Shown here piece after piece: positions 17,461 through 62,854 of a DNA stretch of 64,000 nucleotides. The stretch's first letter is position 1; every line of letters starts with the position of its first letter. The notes beneath the pieces were generated by a model. The model worked only from the letters and a program-made list of their open reading frames with translations. It did not search any database and was not told where the DNA came from. This stretch comes from Chiloscyllium plagiosum. Taxonomy: Eukaryota. Where the stretch lies: assembly GCF_004010195.1 (NCBI RefSeq), contig NC_057718.1:65043548-65107547 (forward strand), read 5' to 3'. The position numbers and the translations under genes were made by a program.

Positions 17461-18600
17461 GTATGTAGTCCTATGTTGTACCCATGAAGAAGAGTACATC
17501 CAAGATGCCTTATGCACTTTCCCGAATCCCACATCATCCTTATTCCTCTTTCTAATTCACTCATGGGATGTGGGCATTGCTGACTGGGCCAGCATTTATT
17601 GCCCATCCCTAGTTGCATTTAATGCACCCAATCACTATTCCTCTATTCAACCCCCTACTCGTGCAGTTATGCTTTCATATGCCTGAACCCCAGACAGGAC
17701 AACCTCATAGTCAACAGCACCAGCAACAGCATGCATCTGATAAAGAAACATCATGACTTGATTTGATCAGTTCAGATACTCAAACTGCATGTATTTTAAA
17801 GGATGGAATAGAAATGGAATTTGTATCTGCTAAGCTACTGGAGATAAGTAGGCTTCAGGTATCATATATGCCAGCATTCAGAAGGGTAGGTCACTGATGA
17901 GAACATTAATGGGGTGACATACAAGGGATGCACAAAGAGATATTTGGCCACTCACTTCTTGTCAGTGTCTGTGGAGGAGCCCAGCTCCATTGCGGTACAG
18001 GACTTTATGAAGATCTTCGAATCCATTTTTTTCAGATTGTGATTGGTGGCTAGCGATTGTGGATCATGCTATGATGCATTCTTTAGAATAGGGATGGGAT
18101 CTGCTAAGTCACTGGATACAAGTAGGCTGCAGGCATCATTTGTTCTAGCACCCAGAAGGGTAAAGTGACTGATGAGTTCTATTGCAGAGGATTCAGGGTA
18201 AGGACATTAGTGGGGTTACAACAGGGGAACACTGATGGGCATAGGTGTGGTAATTCATCAGCCTCCACTGGAGTGGATTAAAGAATACCTCTATTTTAAA
18301 AATACCTACTGAGCATGAGTGAAAGCTGTTGTCTCAGAGTGACATCAGATCACATAGAACTACAGCCTGAGTTTTAGGATTCCAGAACATGTCCTCTCTT
18401 ACCATGCCTTGTAGTTAATTATATTTATTAAAGTTTGTTAATGTTCACTCACAATATCAGATGCATGCTGTTGCTGGTGCTGTTGACTATGAGGTTGTCC
18501 TGTCTGGGGAGAAAGTGAGGTCTGCAGATGCTGGAGATCAAAGTTGAAACTTTATTGCTGGAACAGCACAGCAGGTCAGGCAGCATCCAGGGAACAGGAG

Positions 18601-18636
18601 ATTCGACGTTTCGGGCACAGGCCCTTCTTCAGGAAT
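18601..18636 (-). ncRNA. Minimal type I hammerhead ribozyme motif, intact core
   Basis: AUUC-CUGAAGA-A-GGGC-CUGU-GCCC-GAAAC-GUC/GAAU; predicted cleavage between 18605 and 18604. Confidence 0.8.
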
Positions 18637-18874
18637 GTGGCTGAAGAGCTTCTGTGCAGAGGAGATGACCTGGGGTGTGCAGTGAGAGAGGGACTCACTG
18701 AAATCTTTGTAGAGAGAGGCAGAGAGCTTCTTCAAGGAAGGCATCCTTGTAAGAGGATTCGCAGTAGGTTGAAATCTTCGAGGAGAAAGTGAGGTCTGCA
18801 GATGCTGGAGATCAAAGTTGAAACTTTATTGCTGGAACAGCACAGCAGGTCAGGCAGCATCCAGGGAACAGGAG

Positions 18875-18909
18875 ATTCGACGTTTCGGGCACAGGCCCTT
18901 CTTCAGGAA
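18875..18909 (-). ncRNA. Minimal type I hammerhead ribozyme motif, intact core
   Basis: UUC-CUGAAGA-A-GGGC-CUGU-GCCC-GAAAC-GUC/GAAU; predicted cleavage between 18879 and 18878. Confidence 0.78.
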
Positions 18910-19499
18910 GGGCCTGGGGTTCAGGCTTATGAAAGCATAAATGCAGGAGTAGGGGGTTGAATAAAGGAATAGTGATTGGGTGGAAAGTCAGTATTCCATA
19001 ATCACACCATCTATAGTCTGCATTTGCAAACCACAACTACTGCCATCTCGAAGGACAAAAGCAGCAGATACATGGGAAGACCATCACTTGCAAGTTCCCC
19101 TCTAAGCCACTCACCACCATCCTACCTTGGATGCTAGAAGTCATCCAAGTCTCAGGTTCGCAGGGGAAGCCTGGACTGTGGTTATGTTATGTAGGTTCAA
19201 ACTGTTGTCATGAATTCTGAGGTAGTGGAGATCAAGCTAGGCCTCAAAGGCCCACAACTGGTCAAAGAAGTCCTGCATGGCCACTTGCAGTCTCCAGCCT
19301 TAAAAGACATCAATTTTTGAAGAGGCAAGCTGCAATCACTAGTGTAACACTGCATTAGAGCATAAAGTCTGGAAAACATCCCATAACACAGGCACAATGG
19401 TGACATACAGAGATGATTGTTCCATTTTGTATTGGAATTGTTGATCAATATACTTGTCATTAAAAGATTGTATATTTGTTTTAGTTTTAGAATTTTCAC

Positions 19500-20030: not shown

Positions 20031-20170
20031 TCAAATATTGAAAATGCTGTCAGCTCCAGCCTGGAAGAGATCTAGGTGCACAGAAATCTTGGACCAAAGT
20101 GATTTCACAATGCTTGCTTTGCTGTGCATTTACCACTGTGGTTGGAGGAGGTGGCGCAGTTCAGAGATTA

Positions 20171-20326
20171 GGAGACAGTGAGGTCTGCACTTGCTGGAGA
20201 TCAGAGTTGAGAGTGTGTTGTTGGAAAAGCACAGCAGGTCAGGCAGGAGGAGAAGGAAAGCAGGAGCAGGAAAATCGGTGTTTCGGGCCGGAGCCCTTTA
20301 TCAGGAATGAGTCCTCACTCTCAACA
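20171..20326 (-). mobile_element. Solo PLE terminal repeat (family 1) with degenerate hammerhead
   Basis: Homologous to 18508-18635; 14-bp TSD CAGTTCAGAGATTA at 20157-20170 and 20327-20340; core mutated (CUGAUAA, GAAACACC). Confidence 0.85.
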
Positions 20327-20419
20327 CAGTTCAGAGATTATCTCCTTGGTTAACCATAGCTACCTCAAACACTGCTCCTAGCTGAGGGAAAAGGATGCCT
20401 AACTCCACACAACTGCCTT

Positions 20420-24406: not shown

Positions 24407-25718
24407 GAGAAAGTGAAGACTGCAGATGCTAGAGATCAGAGTCGAGAGTGTAATGCTGGAAAAGCACAGCAGGTATGGACTTCAGTAAGGCGTTCGACAA
24501 GGTTCCCCATGGTAGACTGATTAGCAAGGTTAGATCTCATGGAATACAGGGAGAACTAGACATTTGGATACAGAACTGGCTCAAAGGTAGAAGACAGAGG
24601 GTGGTGGTGGAGGGTTGTTTTTCAGACTGGAGGCCTGTGACCAGTGGAGTGCCACAAGAATCGGTGATGCGTCCTCTACTTTTTGTCATTTACATAGATG
24701 ATTTGAATGCAAGCATAAGAGGTACAGTTAATAAGTTTGCAGATGACACCAAAATTGGAGGTGTAGTGGACAGCGAAAAGGGTTACCTCAGATTACAACA
24801 GGATCTGGACCAGATGGGCCAATGGGCTGAGAAGTGGCAGATGGAGTTTAATTCCGATAAATGCGAGGTGCTGCATTTTGGGAAAGCAAATCTGAGCAGG
24901 ACTTATACACTTAATGGCAAGGTCCTAGGGAGTGTTGCTGAACAAAGAGACTTTGGAGTGCAGGTTTATAGCTCCTTGAAAGTGGAGTCGCAGGTAGATA
25001 GGATAGTGAAGAAGGCATTTGGTATGCTTTCCTTTATTGGTCAGAGTATGGAGTACAGGAGTTGGGAGGTCATGTTGTGGCTATACAGGACATTGGTTCG
25101 GCCACTGTCGGAATATTGCGTGCAATTCTGGTCTCCTTCCTATCGGAAAGATGTTGTGAAACTTGAAAGGGTTCAGAAAAGATTTACAAGGATGTTGCCA
25201 GGGTTGGAGGATTTGAGCTATGAGGAGGGGCTGAACAGGCTGGGACGGTTTACCCTGGAGCGTCGGAGGCTGAGGGGTGACCTTATAGAGGTTTACAAAA
25301 TTATGAGGGGCACGGATAGGATAAATAGACAAAGTCTTTTCCCTGAGGTTGGGGAGTCCAGAATTAGAGGGCATAAGTTTACGGTGAGAGGGAAAGATAT
25401 AAAAGAGACCAAAGGGGCAACTTTTTCATGCAGAGGGTAGTACGTGTATGGAATGAGCTGCCAGAGGATGTGATGGAGGTTGGTACAATTGCAACATTTA
25501 AGAGGCATTTGGATGGGTATATGAATAGGAAGGGTTTGGAGAGATATGGGCCGGGTGCTGGCAGGTGGGACTAAATTGGGTTGGGATATCTGGTCGGCAT
25601 GGATGGGTTGGACCGAAGGGTCTGTTTCCATGCTGTATATCTCTATGACTCTATGAGCAGGTCAGGCAGTATCAGAGGAGCAGGAGAATCAACGTTTCGG
25701 GCATAAGCCCTTCATCAG
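24407..25718 (-). mobile_element. Solo PLE terminal repeat (24407-24474 plus 25656-25718), split by CR1; hammerhead core at 25687-25718
   Basis: Halves collinear with family 1; minus strand CUGAUGA-A-GGGC-UUAU-GCCC-GAAAC-GUU, stem I 5' strand missing. Confidence 0.85.
24475..25655 (+). mobile_element. Young 5'-truncated CR1 with a 321-aa open RT segment
   Basis: ORF 24475-25440 MDFSKAFDKV...SGVPQ...KFADDTK; TSD AGCAGGT at 24468-24474 and 25656-25662. Confidence 0.95.
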
Positions 25719-26574
25719 CAAAATGCTGCAACTTTGACATCAACAATCATGTACTACCAAGATTCAAGGAAAAACCAAATGAAACACCACACCAAGCAGT
25801 TGTAATCAGTATTCTGTATATTAGAATGTAAGTATAGAGTTTACAGGACCAGGAAAATGAGGGAGAATTACTCTTAGAATAAGACATATAGCTGACTCAT
25901 TGCTGGAATGGTCTAGCTAGGTCAGTCTCAAGAATAGAGTACAGATATTCAAATCCCAGAGACCTCCATGGTGATCAGAATCCATGAGGGATAGTGTTGC
26001 ATGCTTCAATTCATGGAAATTGCTGAGACCACGGATTTAGCAATATCAACACAAATGAATTCAGATTTTCCACAACCTCAATGCTCATATTTACATATTA
26101 AACCCTCCCACCCTGGTTCACAGACACAATAATCCATCCAACTTCACATCCTTTCATAGAAACACTATATCCCATCATAGCATGTGGTGAGGGAGCAAAT
26201 AGACCCCAGATGGTCATAGACAGATTATGTGATAAGAACCTGGGTAACCTTGTATGGAGAAAGTTAACATACAGGTACAACAAGCTGTTAAGAAAGTAAT
26301 AATGTGTTAAATTTGAAACTAATGGATTGAAGTGCAAGGCCCAGAATTTCACTATCAAGGCAGGTGATTCCTTTACTTGCTGGATATGCTTATGCAGGAA
26401 GGCCCCCAATTACCAATTAATATCCTTCAAAAATCTGCAACGAGTTTCCATCTATTTCCCACCCAAATATCACTGCATTCTGGGCAAATGAAATGGTGTG
26501 AAAGATTGCAAAATATAATGTAAAATTTAGTTCTGCCCATAATTATCCATGTTTGAAATTCTGCAATGTTTTAT

Positions 26575-35964: not shown

Positions 35965-38014
35965 CGCGATAATTTATCTCCTATAGAAGATACTGAGGGT
36001 GGCCCATCCTATGGATGAAACACCCGGTGTGGTAACACCAACTTTCTATAATAAGAAGTATAAAGATGCTAACACCTTGGGACCTGAACATTTGTCCAAT
36101 AGGAGTGGAGTATTACCTAAGAGCGAATCACCTGATGCTGTACCCAACAATTTAACCCTCCCCCAAGGTCAACCCTATATGATGAAAAGATGCAAGTCAT
36201 CGGCAGACATCTATAGGTGGTGCCATTTTATTTAGAACACTAGAATAAAGGGTCATAACAAGATCTTGGCACCACTGCAGGAACATATTTCTAAGTACGC
36301 TGGACATCATACTTAGAACCCAGACTGAAAGATAAGGACAGGAAACTCTGGAAACCCAACATTCTCTTCAAGAAAGAGTGATCAGTTTTGGTGGTGGATG
36401 TGAGACTGTGGTATGATGATGACAACAAGACATTAGAGAAAGGCTGAGAGGAGAAAAAGGTGGAAATATCAAACCTTTGGCCAAGAAATAAAATAACTGA
36501 CAGAGAGCTCTGAGCCAGTATGCTTCAGATTTGTAATGCGCGAACGAGCAAAATGGCTCAAGAACGACCAGTTCCTTATGAGGTTCCTGGGCATTCGACG
36601 ATATAAATCCTTCACCCAACAAACATCAAGACTTACCATTTCCCTGACACTCAAACTTCTACAAAAATTCAGCAACAGGTAAGAAGACTGAAGAAGCCGC
36701 CCAGCTGAAACCTGGAGATGACCCACACCAAGCCCAAGCTGCTAATGTTCAGTGTACAGCCCAAGAAAATTTGGTATTGGCACCTGCCCGAGGTATGAAA
36801 ATGGTGGTGAGAAAAGCTTTTCCACTGTTGCCATGATCTGGCACCATCTTGAATTGTTTTAAGAATACAAAATAAAAGGAAGGTATAACTTAAAGAGAGT
36901 CCATCAGTCCTGGCCAGCTCATCATCGACGTTGCCTGTGCTCCCATCACTCCACCACCGCTTCACTGCCATCTACACCAAACGCAACTAACACTGAAGTT
37001 GCCATGATTCAGACATCATCCTTCACGTCTGGGCCAATTCTCCTCTGCCACTGCCTCTCCATCATCTGCACCAGAATCGCCAGTATCAGAGTCGCAACTC
37101 TTGCCACTGGGCCCACCTCACTGATGTCACTGTGATACCCTTCCACCACCACTTCACCATTGCCAGTGCCACACCCAACCAGTGACAAAGTCACTGATGT
37201 CCAGGTGTCATCTTTTGCCACTGGGCCTACGTCACCTTTGCTGATGTAGCAGCCGTCAATTCCAATGCCAGGTCCTGTGCTTGCCCCAGAAAGTTAATGG
37301 CTTACTCACTGCCACCACAAGGTGTGTACTGGACCCACTTGGGTCCCTGCTCAGGCTCCTTGCCATCCACGCTCAAGACAAGAGAAAAGTACAGAGAAAA
37401 GAAAAGCGTTGAAGCAGCCAAGTCCCAGCTCAGAGCCCTACTCTGCCGCCATCTTGGTAGCTATCTTGATTATAAATATTTGTAAAAGTTAATAATTAAA
37501 TTAAATACCTTAAAATACATAAAAGTTAATTAAAATTATGTCATAGTAATGGTTATGGATAGGTAGAAGAGAGCAATTCATGGGTACATAAAATGTGGTG
37601 ATGATTTGTATTTGTAACAAAAAGCTCATTACATGATGTAACTTCCTTTGACAACTAACCAAAATAGACTTGCTTGGCTCCCAGTTTCCCTTGTTTTTAG
37701 GGAGATCTGACTTGGTGAACTGGCCCAGCCCTTCAGTGTATTCCTCAAGACAAGTCCTCTTTCAGATCAGGGGTTGTGATTTTGCTACTTAGAGGTTTCA
37801 AAAACATTGACAAGTAACATTAAGACTTGAATAAGGCACCCTTTGGGTGTACTAAAAAAAAGGGATGGAGTGCGTGTGAGGTATCTGTAACGAGAAGATG
37901 GTAGCAGTTATGCTGGTGGAGTGAAGGAGGTATTGATTTACATAAATCACCATACACTCCTCCAGGTGGCCGAGACTGCACCGATCTCAGACTAGGCTGG
38001 CATGGTCTGGTGGC

Positions 38015-38143
38015 AAAAGTGAGAACTGCAGATGCTGAAAATCAGAGTCTACATTAGAGTGGTGCCGGAAAAGCACAGCCGATCAGGCAGCATCTGAGGA
38101 GCAGGAAAATCGACGTTTCAGGCAAAACCCTTCATCAGGAATG
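38015..38143 (-). mobile_element. Solo PLE terminal repeat (family 1) with intact hammerhead core at 38108-38142
   Basis: Minus strand AUUC-CUGAUGA-A-GGGU-UUU-GCCU-GAAAC-GUC-GAUU. Confidence 0.82.
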
Positions 38144-51059: not shown

Positions 51060-52450
51060 ACGGTTACCTGAAATCCCAATACTGGTACATACTTGCTAAG
51101 TCATAACTGCACCACCAATCCTGGTTTTGCATAGATTTCTCCTCCAATCCTGTTAGCCTGACTGCCTATTTCCACACTGACACAATTTTATATATCTCAA
51201 TTAAATCTCCCCTCAGTCTCTTCCATTCTAATGAGAACAACACTTGCCCATCCAATCTTTCCTCAGAGCCACACTTTTCCAGTCCTGAAGAAGGGCTTAT
51301 GTCCGAAACATCGATTCTCCTGTTCCCTGGATGCTGCCTGACCTGCTGCGCTTTTCCAGCAACACATTTTCAGTCCTGGCTACACCCTCATAAATCTTCT
51401 CCGCACCCTGTCGAGTGCAATTATGTCTTTGTTGTAATGAGAAAAGCAGTACTGAACACAGTACTCAAATTATGGCCTAACTAGTTATTTATACAATTCT
51501 TGGATAACCTCCTTTCTCTTATATTAAATACCTCAGGTAATGAAGAAAAGGATTCAAATATGTCTTTTTAACTACTGTGACCTGTCCTGTTACCTTCAGG
51601 GATCTTTGGACTTTTTCTATATCTCTCATTCATTTTGTATTCCTTTGCCTTATTTCACCTCCCCAAATGAATTACCTTACAGTTCTCCAGGTTGAATTCC
51701 ATTTATCAATTTTTTGCCCACCTGAACAGTCCAGCTTCTTAAAACTAGCCTCCTCACTATCAACCACAAAGTTAATGTTGTACAATCTACAAATATCCTG
51801 ATCTTCCCAGTACATTTACATCCAAATTTTTTATATGCACCACAAAAACCAGAGGACATGCACGAAGTCCTGTAGAATTCCATTGTAAACAGCCTTCTTG
51901 TTGTAAATCAACCATTAATCATTACCCACTGCTTCTTGCCCACCAAGTCAGTGTTGTATCCACTGGATCTCACTTGTTCTCAACCAGTCTGCCATATGGG
52001 ATCTTGTCAAATGCCTTGTGTTCCATGTAAACCACATCCACTACACTACCTTCCTCAATCCTCCTTGTTATACCCAAAAAAATTCAATCAAGTTAGTCAG
52101 GCATAATCTTCCCTTAGGAAGTCCATGCAAACCAGCCTTGAATGATCTATGCCTTCCTAAGAGCCCATTTATCCTGTCCCTCAGAATTGATTCCATTAAT
52201 TTTCCCATTTCTGAGGTTAGATTGACTGGCCTGTATTTGTTCAGTTTACCCATTCCTTATTTTGGACAAGATACAAAGTTCGCAGTCTTCCCATCCTCTG
52301 GCACTATATCTATACCTAGTGAGGATTGGAAAATATTTTCAAGTATTTTTCACCTTCCTTACTGGCTTTTTTAAAACAGCCCTGGGGTTCATTGCAAGTG
52401 ACACTGTTTCTTTGTCCACTTTAAAGAATGTTAATCTCATCAATACTTCC
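51060..52450 (-). mobile_element. Old CR1 RT to 3' end
   Basis: KYRPVNLTSEMGKLMESILRD...[17 protein letters not shown] (52068-52253). Confidence 0.85.
51284..51372 (+). mobile_element. Solo PLE terminal repeat (family 1) in CR1, degenerate hammerhead
   Basis: CUGAAGA-A-GGGC-UUAU-GUCC-GAAAC-AUC; CAGTCCTG on both sides. Confidence 0.8.
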
Positions 52451-53525: not shown

Positions 53526-55721
53526 AAGTCCAGAGAGCTGCAGGGTTCTCAAATGGAAAATGAGGTGTTGTTCATCCTGTTTGTGCTGAGCTTCGCTGGA
53601 GCACTGCACAAGCCTGAGGCAGAGTTTTTAGCCACGGAAGAGTGGTGTGTTGAAGTGGCAGGCAACTGGAATCTCAGGGTCTTTTTTGTCGGCAGAATAT
53701 AGGCGTTCTGCAAAATGATTATCCAGTTTGTGTTTTGTTGCCCCATTGTAGAGGGGACCACATTGTGAGCAGTGAATGCAGCAGGCTAGATTGTGTGAAG
53801 TGCACGTAGAGCACTGTAAAGCGCAGCAGACCTATTCATTGCGAACTGTCAACGTGACCTTGGTAATCTCAGTTTCTCTGTCCGCCTCACCCATTCCATC
53901 CTTTCCTTCCAGGAACTGACTGCACTCTGTGCGCTTAAATCCAACCCTGACTATGTCATTAAGCCTGTTGATAAGGATGGTGTAGTCTGGTGGACTGACC
54001 TCTAGGTTGTAGAGGCTGAGTGCCTGCTCTCTGACACCATCTTCCACCTCCCCCAGACCATGGCCCCACAATGGAACATCAGGCCATTGTGTCAACTATG
54101 CTCACCAACCTCATTTCATCTGGTAATCTCCTCACTGCTGCCTCCATCCTCATATTCTCCTAACTCCACACAGCTTGCTTCTACCCCCTTCCCAAAATCC
54201 ATAGGCAGGTCTATTGCTTCTGCCCACTCCTGCCCCACAGAACTCATTCTTCCTACCTTGACTCAATCTTTTCTCCCAAGGTCCAGTCCCTGCTCACTTA
54301 CAGCCAGGATTCCTCTGATGCTTTACAGCAGTTTTGACATTTCCAGTTAGCGCATTCCAGTTGCCTCCTCATTACCATGGATGTTTAATCCTTTTACCAG
54401 TCCATCCCCCACCAGGATGGTCTCAGGATCCTCTGCTTCTTCCTGGAATAGAGGCCTGAACCGTTCATACTCATCACCATCCTCCTCTGCCTAGCTGAGC
54501 TCATCCTCACCCTGAACAACTTCTCTTTTAACTTCTCCCATTTTCTTCATGTCAGATGGGTGGCCATGGGTACCTGCATGGGCCCCAGTTATGTTTATCT
54601 CTTCATGGGGTATGAGAAACACTCCTTGATTTCGTCCTTTTGCGGCTCCGACCCACCACTCTTCTCCAATATATCGAGGGAAGCATTGGTACTGCTTCCC
54701 TCTCTCGTCTAGAATTGGAAAAGCTTTTCAATTTTGCCTCCAATCTCCGCCCTGCTCTTACTTTCACCTGATCTATCTCTAACTTCTCCCTTCCCTTCCT
54801 TGACATCCCTGTTCCCAATTTTGGGGACAGACTGCCCACCAATATCCACAATAAACCCACTGACTCCCTTGACTCTACATTCTCACACCCCGCTTCCTGT
54901 AAAGATTCTATTCCATTCTCGCAGTTACTCTGTCTCCATCACATCTGTTCCGATGATGTCGACTTCGACAAGGGAGCCTCCAAAATGTCCACTTTCTTCC
55001 TCAATTGAAGATTCTCCAGCATTGTTGCTGACAGAGCCCTCAACCGGGTCTGCCCCATCCCCCACAATTCAGCCCTCACCCCCTCTCTTCCCTCCCGCAA
55101 CAGTGATAGGGTCCTTTTTGTCCCACCACCTGCATCCATATCCAGAGGATCATTAGCCGCCATTTCTGCCACTTCCAGCAAGATGCCATCACCAGCCACA
55201 TATTCCCCTCCCTTCCCTTGTCCACCCTCCACAGGGATTGTTCACTCTGGGACACCCTGTCCACTCTTCTTTCATTCCCTACACTCCCCCACAGTCTCAC
55301 AGCAACCACAGAAGTGCAACACTTGCCCAATTACATCCTCCCTTCTCAGTATCCGAGGGTCCAAACACACCTTCCAGGTGAAGCAGCGCTTTATGTACAC
55401 TTCACACAATCTAGCCTACTGCATTTGCTGCTCACAATGTGATCTCCTCTACAATGGGGAAACAAAACATAGACTGGGTGACCATTTCGCAGAACACCTA
55501 CGTCTGCTCGCAAAAGAAAACCTTGAGATTCCAGACGTCTGTCACTTGAACACACCACCCAGTTCCCTGGTCAATGCCTCCTGTCTCAAGCTTGTGGCAG
55601 TGTTCTGGTGACATTCAGTGTTCTGTGTCCTTCAGCACAAGCTGGAGGAACAATGCCTCATCTTCCGTTTGGGAAACCCTGAAGCTCTCTGGACTCTCCT
55701 GTGTATTTTCTCCTACCCCCA

Positions 55722-58025: not shown

Positions 58026-58126
58026 GAGTCAAGATCAGAGTGGTGCTGGAAAAGCATAGCAAGTCAGGCAACATCCGAGGAGCAGGAAAATCAATGTTTC
58101 AGGCAGGAGCCCTTCATCAGAAATGA
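58026..58126 (-). mobile_element. Solo PLE terminal repeat (family 1), degenerate hammerhead
   Basis: Minus strand CUGAUGA-A-GGGC-UCCU-GCCU-GAAAC-AUU. Confidence 0.8.
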
Positions 58127-60425
58127 GGCCCTTGCAGCTTTTGATCCATTATTGGTGACCATATCACTAGTTGTGCAGCTTCCTTCCAAAACTCCATCCC
58201 TTCCTTTTCAACCCTCCTTAAACTCATTCATCACAGATTCAACGATCTAATGCATCCTTTACTGTCTTGCCATTCATTTTTGTCTGATTACAAATCTGTC
58301 AGCATTTTTCAATGGGTTTCCACTTTCAAGGTGCTGCATGAATGCAGATTGTTGTTATTTTTCTTCCTTCCAGCTATAAACCAGACACGATGTTCATTGC
58401 CAACATCACCATTATGTGCTACGGTGACCACACACCTGTAGAAATACAAGTTCTGAACAGCATAGAAAGACCCTCAGTACCTGACCTGCTACCTCACTCA
58501 TTGCCCCATTCCCTGAGCAAAGTGATGAGCTATACAGTAAGGGATGTGGCAGCAGTTTGGTGGGGGTGGGTGGGGGCGATGTGCAGTAGAGCCAGTGGCT
58601 AGCAGCAAGAGGGGTAAGAGACCAGCAGTATCATCAGAAAGGAAGGTAGGTAATAGAAGCTAGCAAGCCATGGGGACTGGTGAACAGCAACTAGTGGAGT
58701 GCGAGAAAGCGGCCTGCAGGAACACACATTCTGATAAGCCAAGATCAACACTCCAACACAGCCTGGATCTTGGAGCTACACCAGGTAACATGAGGCACTT
58801 GGTTTAGCTTGCAATTATTTTCCAGTAATTTAAAAAAAAACAAAAGGTCTTTTCAACAGAATCTCATTGATGAGTCAGTAATCAATCGATATCAGCATAG
58901 TAACCTCTTCCTTGTTTGACAGGAACCAATTCAATTACACATAATGAATGTTGACCTTGCTGAATGAAATGTGTCTCTCTATACCTTGCATGAGCAGCTA
59001 ATAAATCACAATATTTATCCTTTATGTGTTCATGATAATTAATAATAGACTAGTGAAAAAGAAAATAATCAATAAACTAACATGGAGAGAAAGCTTTATA
59101 TTTTGTCACAAACTCCATTTGATTTTGAAACATATCAGAGGAAAAACCAATAATGAATATGATAGTCATCCTGGAACACCATCTTGATGTATGCAAGGCA
59201 AATCAGCCAGCATGTGTCATCAGTGAGTTTTTACCGGCTGCTTTGGAAATAAATTGATTTCTGGAGCTAGTTTATTTCCCCTCGAACCATTCTTCATGAA
59301 GCATAACTGGCAGAACTTTCCCACTTCTCATAAACGTGTTGGAAGGATCTGCAGGTTGATAATCAATGTGTTTGGCACAGTATAAAAGTACCTTCGATGG
59401 CCAAATGCTGGAGTGGGGTCGAACCCAGAGATTTTAGTTCATAAGCACGGACACTACTCACAGCACTGTGAGACCTCCTCTATGGTGCTGTTTGGTACTT
59501 CATGGGAATTGTGCTACATGCAGGATATTTACAATGGAGTAGGTAGGAAATGCAGACAAGTGAAGTTTAGAATCTGTCACAAAGGCTAAAAGTTTATAAT
59601 AGTCAATGATGTGAAGATTTTAAAATGCCTTGGATCATTATCTTTAAATTATATTTTTGTACAGAAACGTTCATAGGGAAATGAGGAATAACAATATTAT
59701 TCACTGCAGGAGGAAGTCTTTGACAATTCCCTTAAATATTATTTTTCATACGTTAGGTGTTCCAAATTCCAAATTAAAGAATTTTCTTTATTTTTTATGT
59801 TAGTATCCTCCACATTGACAGTGGTAAGTATTATGAACAATGAGACATGGTGACGTTACTACTGTTCCACTGCCAACACTAAAGGTGCTCAGTTTTACAT
59901 GGGATCTCCTTCATTCCCCTGACGTCCTCATGACAGAAATCAGATGGTGTTGACTTCAAGCAAAATGCTTCATCTGCTGAAAGGCAAACAGCTGTCAAGT
60001 TGGGTAACAAAGGCATAATTAGATAATGAGCATTCACAGTGATTTTCTTCCGGCTGTTACACACAGCAATCTTATGTTCATGTATGTGTGGGTGAGCCAT
60101 GGTACTTATCTTACAATGATGGCATCTGAGATCACCCTGATACAAACAACGAAACTGTCAATGTAAGCAACCTGGTAAAATTGATCGGAACTGAAGAACA
60201 GCTTTCTGTCTGCACTTTGCGAGGTTAAGTGCAATCAAGTGCAAACGTTGCTGCAAGTGCCATTAGCATTTCTCCTCTTTTCTTCTCATTGCAGAGATAC
60301 AAAACCCCAGCCAGAAAGTTAAAAGCTGCATTTATCCTGCACTTAGAAGGATTCATGGGTCATTTGGTGGATCTTATCCATTCAGGAGTACTTTATGAGC
60401 ATTGTCAGGGCAGGTGGGAGGGACT

Positions 60426-60576
60426 GAAGAGTGTGGTGCTGGAAAAGCACAGCAGATCAGGCAGCATCCAAGGGGCAGGAGGATTGATGTTTCGGGCATT
60501 AGCTCTTTGTCAGAAATATTCCAATACCACACTCTTCGACTCTGATCTCTGGCATCTGTAGTCCTCACTTTCTCCA
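60426..60576 (-). mobile_element. PLE terminal repeat (family 1) with its extreme 3' part inverted
   Basis: Minus copy 60426-60516, plus copy 60519-60575; TSD GTGGGAGGGA/GTAGGAGGGA at 60414-60423 and 60578-60587. Confidence 0.8.
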
Positions 60577-62629: not shown

Positions 62630-62854
62630 ACAAAAACAAAACTGCAGATGCTGGAATCCAAAGTAGACAGGCAGGAGGCTGGAAGAACACAGCAAGCCAT
62701 GCAGCATCAGGAAGAGTAGCCATCGTCTCGGGTATAACCCTTCTTCAGGATTGGGCGTGTGTGTGAGGGTAACTACAGGTAAAGGGGGTGGTGGGTGTAG
62801 GGTGGTGAAGTGGGGATAGATGAAAACAGGTACAGCGTACGACCTGGTTGGTCA
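62630..62854 (-). mobile_element. PLE 3' end nested in CR1, truncated by gap; degenerate hammerhead
   Basis: ACTGCAGATGCTGGAATC; minus strand CUGAAGA-A-GGGU-UAU-ACCC-GAGAC-GAU. Confidence 0.7.

What the first reader, a model, noticed from the sequence alone, without database searches (positions are those of the whole stretch)
18508..18913. Tandem double-hammerhead mini-element: candidate 274-nt retrozyme/circular RNA unit
Seen: two identical 128-bp repeats 274 nt apart, each carrying on the minus strand (A)UUC-CUGAAGA-A-GGGC-CUGU-GCCC-GAAAC-GUC-GAAU, a complete hammerhead core with 4-bp stem II, 3-4-bp stem I and a GUC triplet. Stem III is the loopless palindrome ACGU, which cannot close within one motif but can pair between two. 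Established: Penelope-like elements carry such minimal type I hammerheads, and tandem hammerhead repeats of a few hundred nt in animals (non-LTR retrozymes) yield circular RNAs. Inference: a minus-strand transcript could fold as an intramolecular dimer, cleave at 18879/18878 and 18605/18604, and release a 274-nt monomer with no RT, mobilised in trans by a PLE. Identical repeats and the CTGGGG target duplication indicate a recent insertion.
Basis: partly seen in the sequence, partly recalled or inferred. Interest (0 to 1): 0.85.

Follow-up and report, generated by a model that had tools for sequence, protein, structure and literature searches.

The report
Short Penelope tandem with hammerhead pair
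The two hammerhead ribozyme motifs are real, but they are the end repeats of a common Penelope-like jumping gene in a shark genome, joined by a short piece of that gene's own coding start, so this looks like a one-off truncated copy rather than a self-propagating circular-RNA element.

Summary
Observation confirmed: two identical 128-bp repeats 274 nt apart, each with a minimal type I hammerhead, and a 6-bp CTGGGG duplication (empty site preserved in a nearby inverted paralogue). Interpretation mostly not supported. The repeat is the pseudo-LTR of a young RT+GIY-YIG (Neptune-type) Penelope-like element in a carpet-shark genome (12,020 exact hammerhead copies). The 146-nt spacer is that element's ORF start. 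The exact 274 junction occurs at 4 loci, but the other 3 carry different subfamily sequences, so they arose independently at a CATTC microhomology. Sister loci show a continuum of periods (274-666 nt among the 30 best spacer matches). Element 5' boundaries pile up 31 nt upstream of the cleavage site (2,259) and not at it (137; control position 150), often with an extra G, as expected for capped, uncleaved template RNA. Best model: reverse transcription starts in the pLTR tail, runs to the cap, then jumps into the ORF start. No RNA evidence for a circle (weak test). A different, 224-nt junction is truly amplified (40 matches). The scan noted this family and its 5' pile-up before, elsewhere in this genome.

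The parts
18782..18909 (-). Upstream pLTR copy (128 nt) with minimal hammerhead 1 (core from 18906; predicted cut 18879/18878); lacks the +1 A of the putative start site
   Evidence: same sequence follows the GIY-YIG ORF and 3'UTR in 12 of 12 loci
18636..18781 (-). Native continuation of the pLTR: 37 nt of leader, ATG at 18744-18742 and the first 36 codons of the PLE ORF (MPSLKKLSASLYKD...)
   Evidence: ORF runs on in sister loci; residues 1-126 of the sister N-terminus align to residues 1-125 of a 904-aa RT-bearing protein, E 1e-14 in a 120-sequence search
18633..18637 (-). Non-native junction, CATTC microhomology between ORF codons 36-37 and the putative start site (A at 18636)
18508..18635 (-). 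Downstream pLTR copy (128 nt) with minimal hammerhead 2 (predicted cut 18605/18604); ends at the family's long 'tail' end
   Evidence: 3' ends cluster at nt 91-104 (65) and 126-137 (53) of 161 ends scored
18892..18916 (-). 5' fold-back hairpin (10-bp stem) overlapping the core and stem II of hammerhead 1
18504..18509 (+). Target-site duplication CTGGGG, left copy (last 2 nt shared with the element's 3' end)
18914..18919 (+). Target-site duplication CTGGGG, right copy
17625..17742 (.). 118-bp inverted paralogue of the target, preserving the empty site (arms 100% over 55 nt and 94% over 69 nt)

Best explanation
A single, recent, abortive insertion of a young Neptune-type Penelope-like element (PLE), made in trans by the family's RT/GIY-YIG protein. 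Shown: it is pLTR + first 146 nt after the pLTR + pLTR, ending at the family's tail site, flanked by a short duplication and a 5' fold-back. Inferred: the target nick primed RT at the tail site (2-nt CC/GG microhomology) on a capped, uncleaved transcript. RT copied 128 nt to the RNA's 5' end, re-annealed through CATTC(TGAAG) to the ORF start, copied to the 5' end again, folded back and was joined to the target. An internal skip from the 3' pLTR to the ORF start gives the same product and cannot be told apart at this locus. The hammerheads are passengers of the pLTR; the 274-nt period is an accident of where RT landed, and the copy has not spread.
For: 12,020 exact copies of the 33-nt motif. 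The repeat follows the GIY-YIG ORF in 12 of 12 loci. Homologues of the RT fragment carry RVT_1 and GIY-YIG; a CX4CXXC linker precedes the GIY-YIG. The spacer is the ORF N-terminus. Only the window's own locus has period 274 among the 30 best spacer matches. Exact junction at 4 loci; the other 3 have both pLTRs from other subfamilies, 88-92% identical. 61 spacer-to-pLTR junction matches in a 55-nt range leave the ORF at many points; 45 of 61 land within -3..+4 nt of one base; 13 have an untemplated G before it against 1 with A or T (counted by eye). Genome-wide boundaries: 2,259 at that base, 137 at the cleavage site, 150 at a control position. First 100 listed of the 2,259: 43 G, 46 A (18 from overlapping head-to-head pairs), 11 T (by eye; G vs T p~2e-8). 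Two 3' end clusters about 35 nt apart match the two internal RT start sites and unprocessed template reported for the anole PLE (PMC11167929).
Against: The start site and cap are inferred from DNA junctions; no 5'-end RNA data (one search listed no pile-up of ends, from a poly(A) single-cell library unsuited to the question). RT terminal-transferase activity could also add the extra base. The window's junction has no extra G and is microhomology-only. Its 6-bp duplication is shorter than the 10-17 bp seen in 34 of 60 sister loci. No gap-free full-length element was recovered. A sister 224-nt junction did amplify, so such dimers are not always dead ends.
Confidence: 0.75

Rival explanations
1. 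Incipient non-autonomous PLE: the copy keeps the pLTR promoter region and tail, is transcribed as a linear RNA, and is or will be re-transposed in trans, as the 224-nt lineage was. Hammerhead cleavage is not needed.
For: A different ORF-less junction has 40 exact matches, and nested junction sets are inherited across chromosomes: one three-pLTR layout at 5 of the 20 loci fetched, plus a sixth partly gapped and a seventh on an unplaced contig. pLTR sequences suffice for mobilisation in trans in rotifers (PMC3846280, passages).
Against: No second copy in this subfamily. The upstream pLTR has lost the +1 A context. No read-through on the unique flank in the 2% of run X20 that was read.
Confidence: 0.13
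2. One reading: the transcript folds as a double hammerhead, releases a 274-nt monomer, is circularised and is mobilised as a non-LTR retrozyme.
For: Both cores are intact and the dimer pairing is nested. It meets the purely operational definition of Li et al. 2026 (two consecutive complete motifs), who report such elements in one chondrichthyan, mean consensus 363 bp. Across 254 motifs in the loci held, stem II is nearly invariant while its loop varies. The same junction arose 4 times.
Against: Only a dimer, no array, no family. No 5'-end excess at the cleavage site (137 vs 150). The active fold lies 14-26 kcal/mol above the ensemble in nearest-neighbour terms, worst when the fold-back arm is present (uncalibrated, the core is not modelled). 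The monomer is not unusually stable (z -1.37). Minimal PLE hammerheads cleave poorly even as dimers (PMC4209133), the anole one needs protein (PMC11167929), and 8 of 9 predicted frog dimers did not cleave. The 5 reads with the '18781 to 18508' joint are the native pLTR-ORF adjacency of any family copy, not a circle.
Confidence: 0.07
3. Post-insertion DNA deletion: a longer element inserted and the ORF was later removed by microhomology-mediated repair between the ORF start and the 3' pLTR.
For: 5-nt microhomology, no untemplated base at this junction. 16 of 61 junction matches land upstream in the 3'UTR, as deletions would.
Against: Deletion does not explain why 45 of 61 land at one position or the extra G. 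Both pLTRs and the spacer are identical to young copies, leaving little time.
Confidence: 0.05

Closest known systems
EN+ Penelope-like element insertions with pLTR, tail and inverted 5' copy (Neptune clade; PMC8557442, PMC3846280, passages read)
   Same: Partial tandem of pLTRs, pLTR/tail running into the ORF start, two 3' ends 30-40 bp apart, 5' palindrome, Zn-finger-like linker before GIY-YIG.
   Different: Almost the whole ORF is missing, so the pLTRs are 274 nt apart; the duplication is only 6 bp.
[quoted passage not shown]
   Same: No helix III, palindromic 15.2-16.2, extra nucleotide between 9 and 10.1, G10.1-C11.1 pair, very many solo copies.
   Different: Stem II only 4 bp and stem I 3-4 bp; same-strand pair a few hundred nt apart rather than about 3 kb.
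Non-LTR retrozymes of animals (PMC7229834, abstract passages and part 2 of 6; Li, Clavereau, Pollet 2026, 10.64898/2026.07.22.740005, parts 1-3 of 5)
   Same: Type I motif in tandem at 150-450 nt, no protein, related to PLE pLTRs.
   Different: Those have canonical type I motifs, multicopy units up to long arrays and shown circRNAs. Here the motif is minimal, the unit is single-copy in its subfamily and contains ORF sequence, and no RNA circle is shown.
Poseidon_Ac of the green anole in vitro (Frangieh et al. 2024, PMC11167929, parts 1-2 of 4 read)
   Same: Two internal RT start sites giving the tail; uncleaved RNA as main template; no reads at the hammerhead cut.
   Different: Other clade; there the ORF starts inside the hammerhead, here about 160 nt after it; no jump from the RNA 5' end was described in the parts read.

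Membership tests
EN+ Penelope-like element (derivative) | Repeat is the terminal pLTR of an RT + C-terminal GIY-YIG ORF | tested here: met
   GIY-YIG E~1e-4, at the cut-off; homologues with RVT_1, GIY-YIG; no gap-free full copy
EN+ Penelope-like element (derivative) | pLTR continues into the ORF N-terminus | tested here: met
EN+ Penelope-like element (derivative) | Optional 30-40 bp tail (two 3' ends) | tested here: met
   peaks at nt 93-94 and 128-130
Neptune clade | CX2-5CXXC linker before GIY-YIG | tested here: met
   CNRRRCNTC; Nematis shares the motif and no RT tree was built
PLE minimal hammerhead | Core boxes, extra base at 9/10.1, G10.1-C11.1, palindromic loopless helix III | tested here: met
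   against PMC4209133
PLE minimal hammerhead | Self-cleavage as a dimer | not testable with these tools
   folding only; genomic ends show no excess at the cut
Non-LTR retrozyme | Two or more consecutive units with a complete type I motif (operational definition, Li et al. 2026) | tested here: met
   their -5 kcal/mol filter was not applied here
Non-LTR retrozyme | Unit is multicopy (dispersed copies or arrays with the same junction) | tested here: not met
Non-LTR retrozyme | Canonical type I motif with helix III and loop 1/loop 2 contacts | tested here: not met
   minimal motif; no Rfam hammerhead hit
Non-LTR retrozyme | Stable, highly self-paired monomer | tested here: not met
   z -1.37, 15 of 200 shuffles as stable (folded as a linear strand)
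Non-LTR retrozyme | Abundant linear and circular monomer RNA | tested here: inconclusive
   poly(A) single-cell reads, spacer depth 1-13 against 200-360 on the pLTR; 97% of laid reads run on into other sequence

The most novel reading that the evidence does not exclude
The locus is a footprint of a step in PLE replication that I did not find described: RT starts internally in the 5' pLTR of a capped transcript, makes a 90-130 nt 'strong-stop'-like cDNA, and then either inserts it (solo pLTRs with duplications) or jumps back onto the RNA. Jumps near the ORF start mass-produce short hammerhead dimers, a few of which (the 224-nt junction, 40 matches) become ORF-less lineages. This would be a concrete route by which PLEs give birth to animal retrozymes, and it could also explain how pLTR partial tandems form.
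Probability: 0.4. Interest if true: 0.55.

Novelty: new member of a known kind. Interest (0 to 1): 0.24.

Why it matters
The locus itself is ordinary: one of about 12,000 near-identical hammerhead-bearing ends. Its value is as a sample of the family's junctions, which say that the copied RNA starts just before the hammerhead and is uncut, that RT jumps from that end, and that ORF-less derivatives can spread. That makes the open questions of how PLE tandems form and where animal retrozymes come from testable in one very young, very large family. The 224-nt lineage is the better candidate for a retrozyme precursor than this 274-nt copy.

Tried and rejected
Rfam at gathering score and at E<=10: no hammerhead model matches. 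One search used the wrong coordinates and hit an unrelated repeat; ignored. One search compared two non-overlapping ORF parts and is uninformative. No solved structure matched the RT/EN fragment. Pfam gave no RT hit on the short fragment; RT identity rests on visible motifs and on homologues. Eleven extended regions gave no gap-free full-length element. Sequencing-run search: no RNA holder listed on record; run X21 laid 0 reads, no test. The joint 'goes back 274' was rejected as evidence of a circle because it is the native pLTR-ORF adjacency. A splice-acceptor reading of the fixed 5' boundary was rejected: no AG upstream and the upstream sequence varies. About 30 of the first 100 'cleavage-site' boundaries are inverted junctions using a GGAAT microhomology, so 137 overstates true ends there. 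The second 274-nt spacing at 17825/18099 (81%, unrelated sequence) was treated as coincidence. In one search the value 189 for L002 is an offset artefact (true 305) and L004 (389) was missed. Literature searches for a cap-jump or strong-stop step in PLEs found nothing relevant, nor for shark PLE hammerheads; the library lacks most subscription papers, and the supplements of the bioRxiv preprint, which may list shark retrozyme families, were not seen.

Full report
Observation. The window is G000:C9:65043548-65107547 of a 3.56-Gb genome; the closest named proteins to the family's ORF are from carpet sharks. The exact direct repeat is 18508-18635 / 18782-18909 (128 bp, period 274). The motif descriptor hits 5 times in the window and 0 times in 60 Markov windows. 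Rfam does not recognise it. CTGGGG flanks the insert, and a 118-bp inverted paralogue at 17625-17742 holds the same site uninterrupted, which confirms the duplication. [quoted passage not shown]

What it is. I call the repeat R and the spacer S. The 33-nt hammerhead motif has 12,020 exact copies. R follows a GIY-YIG ORF and its 3'UTR in 12 of 12 loci fetched with the endonuclease region. That ORF shows RT motifs in one locus, its homologues carry RVT_1 and GIY-YIG, and a CX4CXXC linker precedes the nuclease, a mark of Neptune and Nematis elements (PMC8557442, passages). S is what natively follows R: it holds an ATG at 18744 and runs on as a long ORF in sister loci. That N-terminus aligns from residue 1 with residue 1 of 904-aa RT-bearing proteins. 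So the insert is pLTR, ORF start, pLTR. No gap-free full-length element was recovered from 11 extended regions.

Is 274 a unit? Among the 30 best S matches fetched (of 44 listed, 1,947 candidates), 23 have a second pLTR within about 700 nt, with periods from 274 to 666, and only the window's own locus has 274. The exact 28-nt junction occurs at 4 loci, 7 with one mismatch. In the 3 other exact loci both pLTRs belong to other subfamilies (88-92% identity, different loop II), so they are independent events at a CATTC microhomology, which extends to TGAAG with one bulge. This fails the multicopy criterion for a retrozyme family.

How it was made. A gapped pattern found 61 S-to-R junction matches (two loci counted twice as inverted pairs). 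Counted by eye, departure from the ORF is spread over the whole range, 45 land within -3..+4 nt of the A of ATTCCTGA and 16 land upstream in the 3'UTR; 13 have an untemplated G directly before that A, against 1 with A or T. That pattern requires the core to be present, so I repeated it with an anchor beyond the cleavage site: 25 of 31 still land at or before the start of the motif and 1 near the cut. Genome-wide, 2,259 copies have a non-native base directly before that A, against 137 boundaries at the predicted cut and 150 at a control position 8 nt further on. The last two patterns exclude two positions rather than one, which does not close a 15-fold gap. Of the first 100 listed, 43 have G, 46 A and 11 T; 18 of the A cases are overlapping head-to-head pairs. 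In the 30 loci inspected, solo copies join the target mostly by microhomology, and one shows a clean duplication plus a single extra G. The native context CTC-A-TTCC resembles an initiator (recalled, no call), and an extra G at full-length LINE-1 5' junctions is attributed to the mRNA cap (PMC11702581, one passage). I infer that this A is the capped start of the RNA and that the template was uncut. 3' ends fall in two clusters, nt 91-104 (65) and 126-137 (53) of 161 ends into host DNA; 20 more at nt 81 reflect where older subfamilies diverge from my ruler. These are the PLE tail, which in the anole element equals two internal RT start sites on unprocessed RNA (PMC11167929). The simplest path for this locus is priming at the long tail site, copying 128 nt to the RNA 5' end, re-annealing at CATTC in the ORF start, copying to the 5' end again, fold-back and joining. 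The anatomy is shown; the order of steps is inferred, and an internal skip from a 3' pLTR gives the same sequence here. The 6-bp duplication is short for the family (10-17 bp in 34 of 60 loci; shorter matches in that test cannot be told from chance).

Could it still cleave and circularise? The dimer pairing is nested and possible, but costs 14-26 kcal/mol against the ensemble, most when the fold-back arm is included (the model ignores core contacts and was not calibrated on a known dimer). The 274-nt monomer folds no better than shuffles (z -1.37). In print, minimal PLE hammerheads cleave weakly as dimers (PMC4209133), the anole motif cleaves only with protein, and 1 of 9 predicted frog dimers cleaved. 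RNA reads: in about 2% of one poly(A) single-cell run, 708 reads lay on 18420-18781, on both strands, 97% running on into other sequence, with none on the unique flank and little depth on S. Five reads join 18781 to 18508; this is the native R-S adjacency of any family copy and not a circle. The test is weak and does not exclude a non-polyadenylated circle.

Results against my reading. A different junction (R plus 79 nt of S, period 224) has 40 exact matches across many chromosomes. Of 20 such loci fetched, several share whole nested layouts, one adjacent pair shows two 224 units in a row, and one locus has six pLTRs with periods 224, 194, 194, 224 and 559. So ORF-less dimers of this family can be re-transposed, and short arrays exist. 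The window's copy meets the operational retrozyme definition of Li et al. 2026 (two consecutive complete motifs), whose survey includes one chondrichthyan; their supplements were not seen. Stem II is conserved while its loop varies across 254 motifs in the loci held (redundant loci not removed), so the motif is under some constraint in the family.

Comparison and verdict. It is a member of the PLE pLTR derivatives with a minimal hammerhead, already described in kind. It works like a truncated PLE tandem, and it is not shown to be a retrozyme: multicopy unit, canonical motif and stable monomer were tested and not met, and circular RNA is untested in practice. Earlier notes of this scan describe the same family and the 5' pile-up elsewhere in this genome; I reached the pile-up before reading them and tested it here. 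Searches for a cap-jump or strong-stop step in PLEs found nothing relevant. Interest 0.24 for the locus; the family-level mechanism is the part worth following.

Noticed in passing
G000, loci L083-L102 (e.g. L084, L086, L094, L100, L102): A 224-nt ORF-less hammerhead dimer junction has 40 exact matches genome-wide, with nested layouts inherited between chromosomes; one locus has six pLTRs in tandem. A better non-autonomous PLE or proto-retrozyme candidate than the 274-nt copy.
   Followed up: partly
G000 genome-wide; L103-L132: 2,259 young pLTR copies begin at one base just upstream of the hammerhead, often after an extra G; many are solo 91-130 nt inserts with their own duplications or head-to-head pairs.
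   Followed up: yes
window 17625-17742 vs 18455-18509 and 18914-18982: 118-bp inverted duplication about 710 nt apart; all 4 mismatches lie on one side of the insertion. Origin unknown; no flanking duplication seen.
   Followed up: partly
window 18454-18506, run X15: One contig joins 18454, the edge of the inverted-repeat arm, to pLTR sequence at 18506, beside a contig with the assembled junction; possibly another allele, unresolved.
   Followed up: no
window 17825-17901 and 18099-18175: An unrelated, 81% identical repeat pair also spaced 274 nt; treated as coincidence.
   Followed up: partly
L033 (G000:C9:72501314-72504341): A 274-period copy of another subfamily whose first pLTR starts at the predicted cleavage site, but at a TCGAA microhomology, so not evidence of cleavage.
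   Followed up: partly
window 20157-20340, 24407-24474, 25656-25721, 38005-38143, 51280-51372, 58044-58129, 60437-60575, 62642-62753: Older copies of the same pLTR (72-89% identity); the one at 20171-20309 has a 14-bp duplication. A decayed GIY-YIG-type frame lies at about 55009-55611, and many LINE-like RT fragments are scattered through the window.
   Followed up: partly
L025, L020, L038; proteins P0001, P0002, P0004: The family's ORF carries a 36-bp tandem repeat after the N-terminal domain, near which the assembly often has gaps. Shark databases annotate this N-terminus as 'mucin-2-like' or fuse it to a host gene model.
   Followed up: no
one search list, e.g. G000:C1:1863518/1863774, 18072180/18072431, 25850400/25850651, 26033232/26033488: Head-to-head hammerhead pairs recur at 251-256 nt spacing, suggesting a preferred fold-back point in the 3'UTR or another derived lineage.
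   Followed up: no
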